DNA from: a virus
Taxonomy: Duplodnaviria > Heunggongvirae > Uroviricota > Caudoviricetes
Strand: one strand, 5' to 3'
DNA length: 18,937 nucleotides
IMG/VR virus record: IMGVR_UViG_2744054912_000001
Shown here piece after piece: positions 9,379 to 13,483 of the stretch (its first letter is position 1; every line of letters starts with the position of its first letter). The position numbers were made by a program, and so were the translations under genes. The notes beneath the pieces were generated by a model, which did no database searches, was not told where the DNA came from, and was given only the letters and a program-made list of their open reading frames with translations.

Positions 9379-10858
9379 CACCATTCCGTCGAATACGCTG
9401 GTTCCGTTGTTTTATGCGGAAATGGATAACCAGGCGGCGAATACTGCACAGGACAGCGGAGCATCGCTGCTGATTGGTCATGCCAATAACGGTGCAGAGA
9501 TTGTTGCCAACAGTCTGGTACTGATGCCGTCGGCAGACTATGCACGCCAGATTTGTGGTGCGGGAAGTCAGCTGGCGCGTATGGTCGAGGCTTATCGCCA
9601 GACCGACCCGTTTGGTGAACTGTATGTAATTGCCGTTCCTGAATCCACGGGCGCGGCGGCAACGGTTACGCTGACGGTGACCGGGGCGGCAACCGAAACC
9701 GGCACGGTGAATGTTTATGTGGGACGTACCCGCGTGCAGGCACCGGTGACCAACGGCGATAACGTCACGACGATTGCCAGCAGTATCAAAGATGCCATTA
9801 ATGCCGTTCCGGCCCTGCCGTTTACGGCCTCATCTTCGGCAGGCGTGGTCACGCTGACCGCGCGTCATAAGGGGCTTTGCGGGAATGAAATTCCTGTCAG
9901 CCTCAATTACTACGGCTTTGGTGGGGGCGAAGTGCTGCCAGCGGGCGTACAGATTGCTGTGGCGACGGGGAGCGCCGGAACGGGCGCTCCGGTTCTCACC
10001 GGCGCGGTGGCTGCAATGGCGGATGAGCCGTTTGATTATATTGGCCTGCCGTTCAACGACACGGCCTCCGTTAACACGCTGGTGACAGAGATGAACGATA
10101 CCAGCGGTCGCTGGAGCTATGCGCGTCAGCTGTATGGTCATGTGTATACGGCAAAGATCGGCACGCTGTCAGAACTGGTGAACGCAGGTGACCAGTTTAA
10201 CCAGCAGCACATTACCCTGGCGGGATACGAAAAAGAGACCCAGACGCCTGCCGACGAGCTGGCGGCAAGCCGTACCGCCCGCGCAGCGGTGTTTATTCGC
10301 AACGATCCGGCACGTCCCACGCAGACCGGTGAGCTGGTGGGTATGCTGCCTGCGCCGAAGGGGAAACGGTTCACGATGACCGAACAACAGACCCTGCTGT
10401 CTCATGGCGTGGCAACGGCGTATGTCGAAAGCGGGGTGCTGCGCATTCAGCGTGATGTCACCACGTACAGGAAAAACGCTTACGGTGTTGCGGATAACAG
10501 CTACCTCGACAGCGAGACGCTGCATACCAGCGCGTATGTGCTGCGCAAACTGAAATCCGTCATTACCAGTAAGTACGGGCGTCACAAGCTTGCCAGCGAC
10601 GGTACCCGCTTTGGTCCCGGTCAGGCGATTGTCACACCGGCGGTGATCAAAGGGGAACTGCTGGCAACCTACCGTCAGCTTGAGCGTGCGGGGATCGTGG
10701 AAAACTACGAACTGTTTAAGCAGTACCTGGTTGTGGAGCGTGATGCCAGCGATCCGAACCGCCTGAACACGCTGTTCCCGCCTGACTATGTTAACCAGTT
10801 GCGTGTCTTTGCCGTGGTTAACCAGTTCCGTCTTCAGTATTCAGAGGAGTCTGCATAA
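9362..10858 (+). CDS. Tail sheath protein (Mu gpL-like)
   Basis: 498 aa; size and position (before tube protein and chaperone) typical of contractile-tail sheath proteins of Mu-like phages. Confidence 0.9.
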   Translation: MTTSFNTIPSNTLVPLFYAEMDNQAANTAQDSGASLLIGHANNGAEIVANSLVLMPSADYARQICGAGSQLARMVEAYRQTDPFGELYVIAVPESTGAAATVTLTVTGAATETGTVNVYVGRTRVQAPVTNGDNVTTIASSIKDAINAVPALPFTASSSAGVVTLTARHKGLCGNEIPVSLNYYGFGGGEVLPAGVQIAVATGSAGTGAPVLTGAVAAMADEPFDYIGLPFNDTASVNTLVTEMNDTSGRWSYARQLYGHVYTAKIGTLSELVNAGDQFNQQHITLAGYEKETQTPADELAASRTARAAVFIRNDPARPTQTGELVGMLPAPKGKRFTMTEQQTLLSHGVATAYVESGVLRIQRDVTTYRKNAYGVADNSYLDSETLHTSAYVLRKLKSVITSKYGRHKLASDGTRFGPGQAIVTPAVIKGELLATYRQLERAGIVENYELFKQYLVVERDASDPNRLNTLFPPDYVNQLRVFAVVNQFRLQYSEESA

Positions 10859-11214
10859 TGGCCCGTATCGGGGGAACCTGTTATTTCAAAATTGACGGTC
10901 AGCAGCTATCGCTGACCGGCGGCATTGAGGTGCCCATGAACAGGACGGTCAATGATGACATCATCGGCCTGGACGGTTCAGTGGACCGCAAGGAAACTCA
11001 CCGTGCGCCTTATGTCAAAGGGACCTTCAAGGTGCCGAAGAATTTTCCGGTGAGCAAAATCACCTCGTCTGATGAGATGACCATCACTGCCGAGCTGGCG
11101 AACGGTCAGGTCTATGTATTGTCGTCCGCCTGGCTGCACGGCGAAGCGAACCATAATGCCGAAGAAGGCACGGTTGATCTTGAGTTCCACGGTGAAGAAG
11201 GGGATTACCAGTAA
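10858..11214 (+). CDS. Tail tube protein (Mu gpM-like)
   Basis: 118 aa, immediately after the sheath gene, with a GAGGAG RBS; typical tube protein size. Confidence 0.85.
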   Translation: MARIGGTCYFKIDGQQLSLTGGIEVPMNRTVNDDIIGLDGSVDRKETHRAPYVKGTFKVPKNFPVSKITSSDEMTITAELANGQVYVLSSAWLHGEANHNAEEGTVDLEFHGEEGDYQ

Positions 11215-11483
11215 TGAAAGAGCTTGAGTTAAAGAAACCGATTATCGCTCATGGTGAGACACTCTCCGTACTGGAGTTTGATGAACCCACCGGGAAGGAT
11301 GTCCGCGAGCTGGGGTATCCCTACCAGATGAATCAGGATGAGTCAGTCAGACTTCTGGCGCATGTGGTGTCGAAATACATTGTGCGGCTGGCGAAAGTGC
11401 CGCAAAGCTCTGTCGACCAGATGTCTCCGGCAGACCTGAATGCAGCGGCGTGGCTTGTGGCTGGTTTTTTCCTCCAGGCCTGA
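11214..11483 (+). CDS. Tail assembly chaperone (short, unshifted product)
   Basis: 89-aa ORF directly upstream of the tape measure gene. It ends just after a slippery heptamer (T TTT TTC at 11465-11471). Confidence 0.75.
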   Translation: MKELELKKPIIAHGETLSVLEFDEPTGKDVRELGYPYQMNQDESVRLLAHVVSKYIVRLAKVPQSSVDQMSPADLNAAAWLVAGFFLQA

Positions 11484-11638
11484 CGGCTGAATACCTCACT
11501 GATCGCTTCTTTGACTGCGCCAGCTACTGGCGCATTAATCCTTTCGAATTGCTGAATATGCCGATCAGTGAAATTCCCTTGCTGGTCAGTCAGGCAAACA
11601 GGATAGAGCAGGAGAAACGCACACATGGCGGAATTTGA
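11214..11638 (+). CDS. Tail assembly chaperone, predicted -1 programmed-frameshift fusion product (lambda G/GT-like arrangement)
   Basis: The ORF 11450..11638 is in the -1 frame relative to 11214..11483 and overlaps it. The slippery site T_TTT_TTC lies in the overlap. The extended frame ends inside the tape measure start region. The arrangement is conserved before tape measure genes in many tailed phages (established knowledge). Confidence 0.5.
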
Positions 11639-13460
11639 GCTTAAGGCGTTGATCACCGGTGTCGACAGGCTTTCTCCCGCGCTGTCGAAAATGCAAAAGA
11701 AAATCCGGGGATTTAAACGCCAGGCGGAAGAAGCGTCACAGGGTGGGCTGGCGCTTGGTGGCGGACTGGCAGCGGGTCTGACGCTTTCCCTGAAATCTTA
11801 TGCCGATCAGGAAAACGCCGCCACCGGGCTGAAAGTCGCCATGATGGATGCGAACGGCGAGGTCGGAAAGAGCTTTCAGGACATCAATAAACTGGCTATT
11901 GGCCTGGGTAACCAGCTACCCGGTACAACGGCTGATTTCCAGAACATGATGCAGATGCTGGTGCGTCAGGGGATCCCGGCAGAAAACATTCTTGGCGGTG
12001 TGGGTAAAGCGACAGCTTATCTTGCGGTACAACTGAAAAAAACACCGGAAGCGGCTGCTGAGTTTGCTGCAAAGATGCAGGATGCTACCGGAACGGCGTC
12101 AGAAGACATGATGGGGCTGTTCGACACTATCCAGAAGGCGTTTTATCTGGGTGTTGACGATACCACCATGTTGTCCTTCTTCACTAAAACCAGCTCTGTT
12201 CTGAAGATGGTGAACAAGGACGGTCTTCAGGCTGCACAGAGCCTTGCCCCCATCAGCGTCATGATGGATCAGATGGGGATGAACGGGGAGTCGGCAGGTA
12301 ACGCCCTGCGAAAAGTTATCCAGTCCGGATTAAGCGTTAAGAAAATCAGGGACGTCAATAAAATCATGGCCCGCCAGAAACTCGGGGTACAGCTCGATTT
12401 TACTGACGGCAAAGGAAGTTTTGGCGGTCTTGATAACATGTTCAGGCAACTGGCAAAGCTGCGAAAACTGACCGACGTTAAGCGAACAGGTGTACTTAAG
12501 GCAATATTTGGTGATGATGCCGAAACCCTTCAGGTGGTCAATGCACTAATCGATAAAGGAAAGGATGGCTACGATCAGATCCAGCAGAAGATGAATAAAC
12601 AGGCCAGCCTGAATAAACGTGTTCAGGCCCAGCTTGGTACGCTGTCCAACCTGTGGGAGGCAATGACGGGGACCGCAACTAACGGCCTTGCGGCTATTGG
12701 CGGCGCATTTTCTGGTGACGCCAAAAATATCACGCAATGGCTGGGGGAGTTAGGGGAAAAATTCACGAAGTTTGCGGATGAAAATCCCCGGGTTATTCGC
12801 GGCGTCGTCGGGCTTGCTGCCGGTCTTGCGATTCTGAAACTGGGATTGATGGGCGTTGGCGGTGCCATCAGTATTGTCAGCAGGATCATGTCGATGACGC
12901 CGATTGGAATGATTGCGACGGCGATAGCCCTGGCTGCGGGATTAATTATCACTAACTGGGATGTTGTCGGACCTTATTTCAAGAAGCTCTGGGAAACCAT
13001 TGGTCCTTATTTTGAGGCTGGCTGGGAACTTCTGAAGAAGGTTTTTGCCTGGTCGCCGCTGGGGATGGTAATCAATAACTGGGGACCGGTTGTTAAGTGG
13101 TTTCAGGATATGTGGGACAAACTGAAGCCAATTATTGAGTGGTTTACCGACAGTTCCGGTGACACGGTCGATGCCATTAACTCTGCGCAGTGGGGCGCGG
13201 GTGCTTATGATGCTTATGGGACGGGAATACCGGCACGGGGATACACACCTTATCAGGCGGTAGATCCGGCTCAGTCAAACAACGCCTCCGGTGCCACAGG
13301 CCCGAATCCCTTCATGATTAACAAAGCTTCTGCGCCAAAAGTTGATGGTGAGATCAAGGTCTCTTTTGTGAATTCGCCTCCGGGTATGCGGGTTATGGAA
13401 ACGCGATCCAGCGGTTTTGATGTCAGCCATGATGTTGGCTATACGCGCTTTGGCAGGTAA
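11625..13460 (+). CDS. Tail tape measure protein
   Basis: 611 aa. Ala/Gly-rich helical N-region, a hydrophobic segment and Trp-periodic repeats near the C-terminus. Sits between the chaperone and baseplate genes. Confidence 0.9.
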   Translation: MAEFELKALITGVDRLSPALSKMQKKIRGFKRQAEEASQGGLALGGGLAAGLTLSLKSYADQENAATGLKVAMMDANGEVGKSFQDINKLAIGLGNQLPGTTADFQNMMQMLVRQGIPAENILGGVGKATAYLAVQLKKTPEAAAEFAAKMQDATGTASEDMMGLFDTIQKAFYLGVDDTTMLSFFTKTSSVLKMVNKDGLQAAQSLAPISVMMDQMGMNGESAGNALRKVIQSGLSVKKIRDVNKIMARQKLGVQLDFTDGKGSFGGLDNMFRQLAKLRKLTDVKRTGVLKAIFGDDAETLQVVNALIDKGKDGYDQIQQKMNKQASLNKRVQAQLGTLSNLWEAMTGTATNGLAAIGGAFSGDAKNITQWLGELGEKFTKFADENPRVIRGVVGLAAGLAILKLGLMGVGGAISIVSRIMSMTPIGMIATAIALAAGLIITNWDVVGPYFKKLWETIGPYFEAGWELLKKVFAWSPLGMVINNWGPVVKWFQDMWDKLKPIIEWFTDSSGDTVDAINSAQWGAGAYDAYGTGIPARGYTPYQAVDPAQSNNASGATGPNPFMINKASAPKVDGEIKVSFVNSPPGMRVMETRSSGFDVSHDVGYTRFGR

Positions 13461-13483
13461 TGAAAAATTAATCTGTTAATGAG

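What the first reader, a model, noticed from the sequence alone, without database searches (positions are those of the whole stretch)
11214..11638. Programmed -1 ribosomal frameshift in the tail assembly chaperone (slippery T_TTT_TTC at 11465-11471)
The 89-codon ORF ends 12 nt after a canonical X_XXY_YYZ slippery heptamer, and a 62-codon ORF in the -1 frame overlaps it and runs to the tape measure start. This reproduces the conserved G/GT-type frameshift upstream of tape measure genes, predicting a ~141-aa fusion made at low frequency. The ORF track shows it as two unrelated ORFs.
Basis: partly seen in the sequence, partly recalled or inferred. Interest (0 to 1): 0.5.

Follow-up and report, generated by a model that had tools for sequence, protein, structure and literature searches.

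The report
Tail chaperone -1 frameshift site, SfV-like prophage
This is the usual programmed ribosomal slip that tailed phages use to make a short and a long tail-assembly chaperone from one gene; it is real and strongly conserved, but it is an ordinary, unannotated example of a well-known mechanism.

Summary
ORF 11214-11483 (89 aa) carries T_TTT_TTC at 11465-11471 in X_XXY_YYZ phase. The -1 frame then stays open for 55 codons to a stop at 11636-11638, 14 nt inside the tape measure gene (ATG 11625). The predicted fusion is 141 aa.

The window is an SfV/SfII-like E. coli prophage (99% identity). ORF1 belongs to Pfam PF10109, the family of P2 gpE. The site aligns with the proven P2 E/E+E' frameshift site: GGT TTT TTG there, GGT TTT TTC here; products 91/142 aa versus 89/141 aa.

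In 24 sequence clusters reaching 33-40% identity, NNT TTT TTN is kept in phase even in 60-64% GC hosts. The -1 peptide is conserved and evolves with codon periodicity, whereas the zero-frame tail is variable. Most relatives have no start codon for the -1 ORF.

No stimulatory structure lies at the canonical spacing. A conserved 8-bp hairpin sits 45 nt downstream in the SfV subgroup only, and its role is unknown. Public records annotate only the short protein, or call the -1 ORF hypothetical.

Verdict: a real programmed -1 frameshift, a new (unannotated) member of a known kind, of low interest. Phage Mu itself uses a -2 shift, so the closest model is P2, not Mu.

The parts
10858..11214 (+). Tail tube gene (118 aa), immediately upstream; its stop overlaps the chaperone ATG.
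   Evidence: Pfam PF10618 Tail_tube, E 2.4e-33; phrog_185 tail tube.
11214..11483 (+). Tail assembly chaperone, short zero-frame product (89 aa), the gpE-like protein.
   Evidence: Pfam PF10109 Phage_TAC_7, 56.7 bits against a cutoff of 25, covering residues 4-86, so the domain ends at the slip site. RefSeq annotates it as 'phage tail assembly protein'.
11465..11471 (+). Slippery heptamer T_TTT_TTC in X_XXY_YYZ phase: the proposed site of the tandem -1 slip of two tRNA-Phe.
   Evidence: NNT TTT TTN is kept at the same codon in 103 of 105 loci and in 24 of 24 clusters at 90% aa identity. It aligns with the P2 site GGT TTT TTG.
11481..11483 (+). Zero-frame stop codon (TGA), three codons after the heptamer.
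   Evidence: The zero-frame tail after the heptamer varies from 3 to 21 codons and is not conserved among relatives.
11471..11638 (+). The -1 frame extension (55 codons plus stop), the E'-like C-terminal domain of the 141-aa fusion. It is read from base 11471 after the slip.
   Evidence: - Matches phrog_32181, E 3e-41.
- Peptide conserved across subgroups, with motif (F/Y)..A.(F/Y)W(R/K)(I/L/V)(N/D)P...A.R(I/L).
- Pairwise differences by -1-frame codon position are 653/373/1371.
- hhalign against P2 E' alone gives E 6e-4.
- The first ATG/GTG/TTG after the heptamer in this frame is TTG 11549, beyond the conserved motif.
11516..11534 (+). Conserved 8-bp hairpin UGCGCCAG-CUA-CUGGCGCA inside the -1 extension, 45 nt after the heptamer. 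Its role is unknown, and it is too distant to be a classical stimulator.
   Evidence: - Free energy -12.9 kcal/mol.
- Stem invariant and only a loop base variable in 13 distinct SfV-subgroup sequences and 80 IMG/VR loci.
- Synonymous-site entropy minimum of 0.30 bit.
- Absent from the other subgroups and from P2.
11610..11614 (+). AGGAG Shine-Dalgarno sequence of the tape measure gene, lying inside the end of the -1 extension.
   Evidence: Read directly from the sequence; it lies 10 nt upstream of ATG 11625.
11625..13460 (+). Tail tape measure protein gene (611 aa). Its first 14 nt overlap the end of the -1 extension.
   Evidence: Pfam PF10145, E 1.4e-26; phrog_28 and phrog_17727 tape measure.

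Best explanation
**What it is.** The stretch 11214-11638 encodes the tail assembly chaperone pair of an SfV-like myovirus prophage. This pair is the counterpart of P2 gpE and gpE+E' and of lambda gpG and gpGT.

**Proposed mechanism.**
- Most ribosomes read the zero frame and terminate at TGA 11481-83, giving the 89-aa chaperone.
- A minority slip when tRNA-Phe occupies the P site (UUU 11466-68) and the A site (UUC 11469-71). Both tRNAs re-pair one base back on U_UUU_UU.
- Translation then continues in the -1 frame for 55 codons and ends at 11636-38, just inside the tape measure gene. The product is a 141-aa fusion with the same N-terminal domain plus an E'-like C-terminal domain.

**Proposed function (inferred).** By analogy with lambda and P2, the shared N-domain coats the tape measure protein. 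The extension on the rare fusion recruits the tube protein. The slip rate would therefore fix the ratio of the two proteins needed for tail assembly.

**What is shown and what is inferred.** Shown here: the anatomy, family membership, conservation of the heptamer and its phase, coding selection on the -1 frame, and homology of the site to P2's. Inferred: that the slip actually occurs, how often it occurs, and the roles of the two proteins.
For: 1. **Anatomy.** In-phase T_TTT_TTC lies 3 codons before the stop. The -1 frame is open for 55 codons and ends 14 nt into the tape measure gene. The +1 frame closes after 1 codon.
2. **Context.** The gene order is sheath, tube, TAC, tape measure, DNA-circularisation protein, with no promoter or terminator in between.
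3. **Family.** PF10109 matches at 56.7 bits and its domain ends exactly at the slip site, as it does in P2 gpE.
4. **Homology to a proven site.** P2 E+E' is annotated as a -1 frameshift at GGT TTT TTG, codons 84-85, with products of 91 and 142 aa, and E' overlaps gene T by 8 nt (PMC3091744). The 24-cluster profile aligns colinearly with P2 E+E' (E 4.6e-6), and VAGFF aligns with VVGFL.
5. **Conservation of the heptamer.** Nine of the 10 lineages analysed from an ORF1-only tblastn search keep T_TTT_TTN at the same codon, with the -1 frame open to between -3 and +13 nt of the tape measure start. The same holds for 103 of 105 loci and 24 of 24 clusters. This includes 60-64% GC hosts where TTT is only 7-33% of Phe codons and T is 9-18% of third positions. 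The naive joint probability is 1e-30 and ignores phylogeny.
6. **Conservation of the -1 peptide.** It is conserved and its substitutions show 1<3>2 codon periodicity in the -1 frame. The zero-frame tail is variable in length and sequence.
7. **No independent start.** Seven of 10 lineages have no ATG/GTG/TTG in the -1 frame upstream of the heptamer. The window's GTG 11450 has no Shine-Dalgarno sequence.
8. **Motif activity.** U_UUU_UUC is one of the motifs measured as frameshift-prone in E. coli (PMC4066793).
Against: - There is no experimental evidence for any SfV-like phage in what I could read.
- The bare U_UUU_UUC motif gives only 0.121% frameshifting in an E. coli reporter, against a background of 0.055% (PMC4066793 supplement).
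- I found no stimulator at the canonical 5-9 nt spacing. The first 50 nt downstream fold no better than shuffles (z +0.71), and there is no Shine-Dalgarno-like sequence upstream. The efficiency is therefore unknown.
- One relative, Paraburkholderia phage IPK (an UNVERIFIED record), has GGC TTC TTC at the site yet retains an E'-like peptide. The heptamer is therefore not absolutely universal.
- The window's E' part does not match Pfam PF06528 (Phage_P2_GpE).
Confidence: 0.9

Rival explanations
1. The -1 ORF is a separate small gene, translated from its own start (GTG 11450 or a later codon). This is how GenBank ON470584 annotates it ('hypothetical protein').
For: A GTG lies in the -1 frame at 11450. 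One phage record annotates a 60-aa protein there. PHROGs holds it as a stand-alone family, phrog_32181. Phage IPK keeps the peptide without a heptamer.
Against: - There is no Shine-Dalgarno sequence before GTG 11450.
- Seven of 10 lineages have no start codon at all in the -1 frame upstream of the heptamer.
- The next start-like codon in the window (TTG 11549) lies after the conserved YWRINPFE motif.
- This reading does not explain the strict synonymous conservation of NNT TTT TTN in GC-rich hosts.
- The homologous P2 ORF E' is annotated as expressed by a -1 translational frameshift (PMC3091744).
Confidence: 0.04
2. The fusion is made by transcriptional slippage. RNA polymerase inserts one extra U in the U6 run, producing a minority mRNA that encodes the same 141-aa protein in a single frame.
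For: Adding one base just before or within the run puts the two parts in frame. Two IMG/VR contigs with an extra G before the T6 run encode exactly the predicted fusion. Transcriptional slippage on homopolymer runs is a known route to the same outcome (PMC5009743).
Against: - From general knowledge, not tested here: six T is short for productive slippage by E. coli RNA polymerase, which is efficient on runs of about 9 or more.
- The run is never longer than 7 in any of the 24 clusters.
- The run always sits in X_XXY_YYZ phase, which matters for ribosomes but not for RNA polymerase. Amino-acid constraint on F-F/F-L could contribute to that phase.
- The homologous P2 site is described as translational (PMC3091744).
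Confidence: 0.04
3. There is no functional recoding. The heptamer and the open -1 frame are a coincidence or a relic, and only the 89-aa protein matters.
For: Public annotation pipelines call only the 89-aa protein. The bare motif is weak in reporters (PMC4066793 supplement).
Against: The -1 peptide shows coding periodicity and amino-acid conservation across lineages at 33-40% identity. The heptamer is conserved against codon bias. The -1 stop consistently sits at the tape measure start. The chance estimate within the window is about 0.01.
Confidence: 0.02

Closest known systems
Phage P2 gpE / gpE+E' programmed -1 frameshift (Christie et al. 2002, J Bacteriol 184:6522; annotated in NC_001895)
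   Same: - Same Pfam family for the upstream protein (PF10109), with the domain ending at the slip site.
- Same position, between the tube and tape measure genes of a contractile tail.
- Nearly the same site (GGT TTT TTG versus GGT TTT TTC) at the same aligned column.
- Product sizes of 91/142 aa versus 89/141 aa.
- The -1 ORF overlaps the tape measure start (8 nt versus 14 nt).
- No obvious downstream structure (PMC3091744).
   Different: - Sequence identity is only about 22%.
- Z is C rather than G.
- The E' part here is not recognised by Pfam PF06528 (Phage_P2_GpE).
- The surrounding tail module is Mu/SfV-like (DUF2635, Mu-type sheath, DNA-circularisation protein) rather than P2-like.
- The SfV subgroup has a conserved hairpin at +45 that P2 lacks.
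Phage lambda gpG / gpGT -1 frameshift and the conserved tail-chaperone frameshift class (Levin et al. 1993; Xu, Hendrix & Duda 2004, Mol Cell 16:11)
   Same: - Two overlapping ORFs just upstream of the tape measure gene.
- A slip near the end of the first ORF.
- A short product and a fusion product sharing an N-terminus.
- A presumed fixed ratio needed for tail assembly (PMC5009743).
   Different: - Lambda slips on G_GGA_AAG in a siphovirus tail.
- No detectable sequence similarity to gpG or gpT was tested or found here.
- The lambda ratio (about 30:1) cannot be transferred to this site.
Phage Mu gp41 tail assembly chaperone (PF23746) with a -2 frameshift
   Same: It occupies the same position in a tail module whose neighbouring genes in SfV-like records carry Mu-homologue annotations (gp38, sheath L, tube M, gp42). 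It has a weak PF10109 signal (24.7 bits).
   Different: - Mu gp41 is 144 aa and has no in-phase X_XXY_YYZ heptamer.
- Its extension lies in the +1/-2 frame, and its -1 frame is closed.
- The literature gives -2 frameshifting for Mu (PMC5009743).
- In the window, the +1 frame closes after one codon.

Membership tests
Conserved tail-assembly-chaperone frameshift class (lambda G/GT, P2 E/E+E') | The gene pair lies between the major tail/tube gene and the tape measure gene. | tested here: met
   Tube gene (PF10618) at 10858-11214 and tape measure gene (PF10145) at 11625-13460.
Conserved tail-assembly-chaperone frameshift class (lambda G/GT, P2 E/E+E') | The second ORF overlaps the end of the first in another frame and lacks its own translation start signals. 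| tested here: met
   The second ORF is in the -1 frame. There is no Shine-Dalgarno sequence before GTG 11450, and 7 of 10 lineages have no start codon upstream of the heptamer.
Conserved tail-assembly-chaperone frameshift class (lambda G/GT, P2 E/E+E') | A slippery sequence in the correct phase lies in the overlap, near the end of the first ORF. | tested here: met
   T_TTT_TTC at 11465-11471, three codons before the stop.
Conserved tail-assembly-chaperone frameshift class (lambda G/GT, P2 E/E+E') | The arrangement is conserved among diverged relatives. | tested here: met
   24 of 24 clusters and 103 of 105 loci keep it; there is one real exception, phage IPK.
Conserved tail-assembly-chaperone frameshift class (lambda G/GT, P2 E/E+E') | Both the short protein and the fusion are made in a set ratio, both are needed for tail assembly, and both are absent from virions. 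| not testable with these tools
   This needs proteomics, reporter assays and genetics.
Pfam PF10109 Phage_TAC_7 (P2 E, Mu gp41, gp14) | The HMM score exceeds the gathering threshold. | tested here: met
   56.7 bits against 25; residues 4-86 match profile positions 2-78 of 79.
P2 E+E' orthologue | Colinear similarity across both the E and E' parts, with the slip site at the same aligned column. | tested here: met
   hhalign of the full length gives E 4.6e-6 and probability 86%. The N part alone gives 1.9e-4 and the C part alone 6e-4. VAGFF aligns with VVGFL. Pairwise BLASTP is not significant.
Pfam PF06528 Phage_P2_GpE (the E' domain of P2) | An HMM match of the -1 extension. | tested here: not met
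   No hit at E up to 10 for the window's extension, whereas P2 E+E' scores 76.3 bits.
Mu-type (-2) chaperone frameshift | The extension is encoded in the +1/-2 frame. | tested here: not met
   The window's +1 frame closes at 11488-90, one codon after the stop. Mu's extension is in the +1 frame.
Stimulated bacterial -1 PRF (dnaX / IS3-family type) | An upstream Shine-Dalgarno-like element and/or a stable hairpin or pseudoknot 5-9 nt downstream of the heptamer. | tested here: not met
   Only a 4-bp hairpin lies at +6. The first 50 nt give z +0.71 and the first 90 nt give z -1.03. No conserved proximal structure appears in the alignment or in other subgroups. No GGAG/GAGG lies upstream.

The most novel reading that the evidence does not exclude
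The invariant 8-bp hairpin at 11516-11534 lies 45 nt past the slip site and 33 nt past the zero-frame stop. It shows suppressed synonymous variation and is found only in the SfV subgroup. It might be a functional RNA element that tunes the chaperone ratio or downstream tape measure expression from an unusual distance. Possible routes are pausing the few -1 frame ribosomes, or protecting the sparsely translated 141-nt spacer from Rho or RNase. This would differ from the classical proximal stimulator.
Probability: 0.12. Interest if true: 0.45.

Novelty: new member of a known kind. Interest (0 to 1): 0.15.

Why it matters
The main value is for annotation. The element matched in 918 of 5426 complete E. 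coli genomes. In the RefSeq, SfV and relative records I inspected, it carries either a 141-nt 'empty' gap or a spurious 'hypothetical protein' where the second half of an essential tail chaperone is encoded. All curated protein entries found are the short form. Adding the ribosomal-slippage join would correct the inspected SfV, SfII, SfI and related records and their Pseudomonas and Burkholderia prophage or tailocin relatives. It adds nothing new to the biology of frameshifting. It does show that a Mu-like tail module can carry a P2-type (-1) rather than a Mu-type (-2) chaperone.

Tried and rejected
1. **Proximal stimulatory structure.** Folding 11472-11521 and 11472-11561 gave nothing better than shuffles. 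The alignment fold kept no proximal helix.
2. **Tape measure Shine-Dalgarno sequestration.** Inverted repeat 11602-17 / 11671-86 suggested coupling tape measure translation to E' ribosomes. Its fold has z -1.37 and the pairing is not conserved in 8 relatives. Rejected.
3. **Rfam.** The scan of 11000-11900 returned only chance-level hits.
4. **Minus strand.** ORFs 11333-11656 and 11347-11499 have no PHROG match and are not annotated in the inspected records.
5. **NCBIfam.** No model matches the fusion, the E' part, or P2 E+E'.
6. **PDB.** The sequence search found no relative.
8. **Full-length fusions in the protein database.** P0001-P0003 turned out to be singleton, indel-ridden assemblies, not annotated slippage products.
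9. **Related-locus search with the 9-lineage alignment.** It failed for lack of conserved stretches, so subgroup alignments were used instead.
10. **Literature.** Christie et al. 2002 and Xu et al. 2004 are not in the held library. I could not check whether SfV is already listed there.

Full report
**Observation.**
ORF 11214-11483 encodes 89 aa and ends ...GCT GGT TTT TTC CTC CAG GCC TGA. The heptamer T_TTT_TTC lies at 11465-11471 in X_XXY_YYZ phase. The -1 frame is open from 11342 to a stop at 11636-11638, while the +1 frame closes at 11488-90. A -1 slip on the heptamer gives 86 + 55 = 141 aa. The '62-codon ORF' from GTG 11450 is a mechanical ORF call. The -1 frame overlaps the tape measure ATG (11625) by 14 nt rather than stopping at it.

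Within the window there are 10 in-phase heptamers in 6012 codons. Only this one leads beyond the zero-frame stop. Only 5.6% of positions have a -1 frame open for 55 or more codons.

**Identity and context.**
The neighbouring genes are tail sheath (PF04984 and related domains), tail tube (PF10618), this ORF (PF10109 Phage_TAC_7, 56.7 bits against a cutoff of 25, residues 4-86), tape measure (PF10145) and a DNA-circularisation protein (PF07157). No promoter-like site, and no plus-strand terminator-like site, lies between tube and tape measure.

The DNA is 99% identical to Shigella/E. coli phages SfII, SfV and SfI and to phage vB_EcoM-689R6. The stretch matches in 918 of 5426 complete E. coli genomes. 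RefSeq and the SfV record annotate only the 89-aa 'tail assembly protein' and leave 141 nt empty before the tape measure gene. One GenBank record calls the -1 ORF a separate 'hypothetical protein'. None of the records inspected annotates slippage.

In a 5.8-billion-sequence protein set, every curated entry is the 89-aa form. The few full-length 'fusions' are singleton assemblies with indel errors. The -1 part exists as PHROG 32181 with 'unknown function'.

**Comparative test.**
A tblastn search with ORF1 alone, and therefore unbiased with respect to the -1 part, found 27 phage records in about 10 lineages reaching 40% identity.

- Nine lineages keep T_TTT_TTN in phase at the same codon. They are SfV/SfII, Edwardsiella EPP-1, Pantoea AH07, Burkholderia BgVeeders33, SfIV, ST64B, Pseudomonas DVM-2008, phiP27 and Pseudomonas PG1.
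- In these, the -1 frame runs from the heptamer to between -3 and +13 nt of the tape measure start.
- The zero-frame tail after the heptamer varies from 3 to 21 codons with unrelated sequences.
- Seven of the ten sequences analysed have no start codon in the -1 frame upstream of the heptamer.
- The -1 peptides align well and share a conserved motif.

Adding genome and IMG/VR loci, 103 of 105 loci and 24 of 24 clusters at 90% identity have NNT TTT TTN. This includes hosts with 60-64% GC, where TTT is only 7-33% of Phe codons and T only 9-18% of third positions. The naive joint probability is 1e-30, not corrected for shared ancestry.

In the SfV subgroup, pairwise differences across the extension fall 653/373/1371 on -1-frame codon positions 1/2/3. 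This is the same periodicity as in the chaperone ORF itself. The -1 frame is therefore a protein under purifying selection, joined to ORF1 at a nucleotide-constrained slippery site.

**Exceptions.**
- Paraburkholderia phage IPK (an UNVERIFIED record) has GGC TTC TTC and -1 stops until four codons before the ORF1 stop. It still keeps an E'-like peptide.
- L025 was a spurious weak match.
- Two IMG/VR contigs carry an extra G before the T run, so they encode exactly the predicted 141-aa fusion in one frame. These are either sequencing errors or fusion-only mutants.

**Comparison with known systems.**
P2 is annotated with E (91 aa) and E+E' (142 aa), joined by a -1 frameshift at GGT TTT TTG (codons 84-85). 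E' overlaps tape measure gene T by 8 nt (PMC3091744 citing Christie 2002 and Xu 2004). PF10109 ends at the slip site in both proteins.

A profile of the 24 clusters aligns colinearly with P2 E+E' (E 4.6e-6), and VAGFF aligns with VVGFL. The N and C halves are each weakly significant on their own. The window's extension is not recognised by Pfam PF06528 (Phage_P2_GpE), so it is a divergent E'.

Phage Mu has the homologous tail module but differs. Its gp41 is 144 aa (PF23746) and has no in-phase heptamer. Its extension lies in the +1/-2 frame, in line with the published -2 shift (PMC5009743). The feature therefore works like, and appears orthologous to, P2 E/E+E', not Mu's version.

**Mechanism and efficiency.**
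The best explanation is a tandem -1 slip of two tRNA-Phe on U_UUU_UUC. U_UUU_UUC is among the motifs measured as frameshift-prone in E. coli, but it is weak when bare: 0.121% without a stimulator, 0.89% with IS911 stimulators and 7.6% with the IS3 pseudoknot, against a 0.055% background. P2's UUUUUUG gives 0.118% (PMC4066793 text and supplement). The review literature gives lambda a 30:1 ratio and says P2-type sites are 2-3 fold more efficient (PMC5009743).

I found no Shine-Dalgarno-like element upstream and no significant structure at the canonical spacing. No shared proximal hairpin appears across subgroups or in P2. This agrees with what is reported for P2-like phages (PMC3091744). The actual rate is therefore unknown. 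The roles of the two products (coating the tape measure protein and recruiting the tube protein) are inferred from lambda (PMC5009743), not shown here.

**Unexplained extra.**
In the SfV subgroup only, a perfect 8-bp hairpin (UGCGCCAG-CUA-CUGGCGCA, 11516-11534, -12.9 kcal/mol) lies 45 nt past the heptamer. Its stem is invariant in 13 distinct sequences (74-100% aa identity) and in 80 further loci, and only a loop base varies. Synonymous-site entropy falls to 0.30 bit there, compared with about 0.6-1.7 elsewhere and 0.14 at the heptamer and overlap. It is too distant to be a classical stimulator, and I could not assign it a role.

**Rivals.**
- Independent initiation of the -1 ORF is contradicted by the lack of start codons and Shine-Dalgarno sequences, and by the heptamer conservation.
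- Transcriptional slippage would give the same protein but is unlikely on a T6 run. It cannot be excluded from sequence alone.
- A coincidence is excluded by the comparative data.

**Verdict.**
This is a real, strongly supported programmed -1 frameshift of the P2 E/E+E' type in an SfV-like prophage. It is unannotated in the public records I inspected, but it belongs to a well-known class. I could not read Xu et al. 2004 to check whether SfV is already listed there. Interest is low. The main value is in correcting annotation, with the +45 hairpin as a minor open question.

Noticed in passing
window 11516-11534: A perfect 8-bp hairpin (UGCGCCAG-CUA-CUGGCGCA) lies 45 nt past the slippery site. 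The stem is invariant, only a loop base varies, and synonymous variation is suppressed in the SfV subgroup. It is absent from the other subgroups and from P2. Its function is unknown.
   Followed up: partly
L108 1730-1800 and L109 1730-1800 (IMG/VR UViG_2585427730_000011, UViG_2585427747_000001): These contigs have GGG instead of GG just before the T6 run, so the 141-aa fusion is encoded in one continuous frame and the short form is lost. This is either a homopolymer sequencing error or natural fusion-only mutants.
   Followed up: partly
L006 1201-1600 (Paraburkholderia phage IPK, PV588664, UNVERIFIED): This is the only real relative without the heptamer (GGC TTC TTC). The -1 frame has stops until 4 codons before the chaperone stop, yet an E'-like peptide (VFDLAHFWNVSP...) follows. 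How it is expressed is unclear.
   Followed up: partly
window 11484-11624; L001 2771-2911; L002 2127-2267: RefSeq/PGAP and the SfV/SfII reference records leave this 141-nt coding stretch unannotated. The element matched in 918 of 5426 complete E. coli genomes. Other records call it a separate hypothetical protein (phrog_32181, 'unknown function').
   Followed up: yes
L107 3553-4132 (phage Mu gp41 to gp42): Mu's chaperone gene has no in-phase X_XXY_YYZ heptamer. Its extension to the tape measure start is open in the +1/-2 frame, not the -1 frame. A Mu-like tail module in SfV-type phages therefore carries a P2-type chaperone instead.
   Followed up: partly
L001 4776-5222 (E. coli F9792), corresponding to window ~13460-13479: In this otherwise near-identical prophage, a minus-strand 'OB-fold protein' gene sits between the tape measure and DNA-circularisation genes. 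In the window these two genes are only 18 nt apart. It may be a moron-like insertion.
   Followed up: no
window 11630-11638: The window's -1 extension ends ...THGGI*, two residues longer than in SfV and most relatives (...THG*). The stop sits 6 nt further into the tape measure gene.
   Followed up: no
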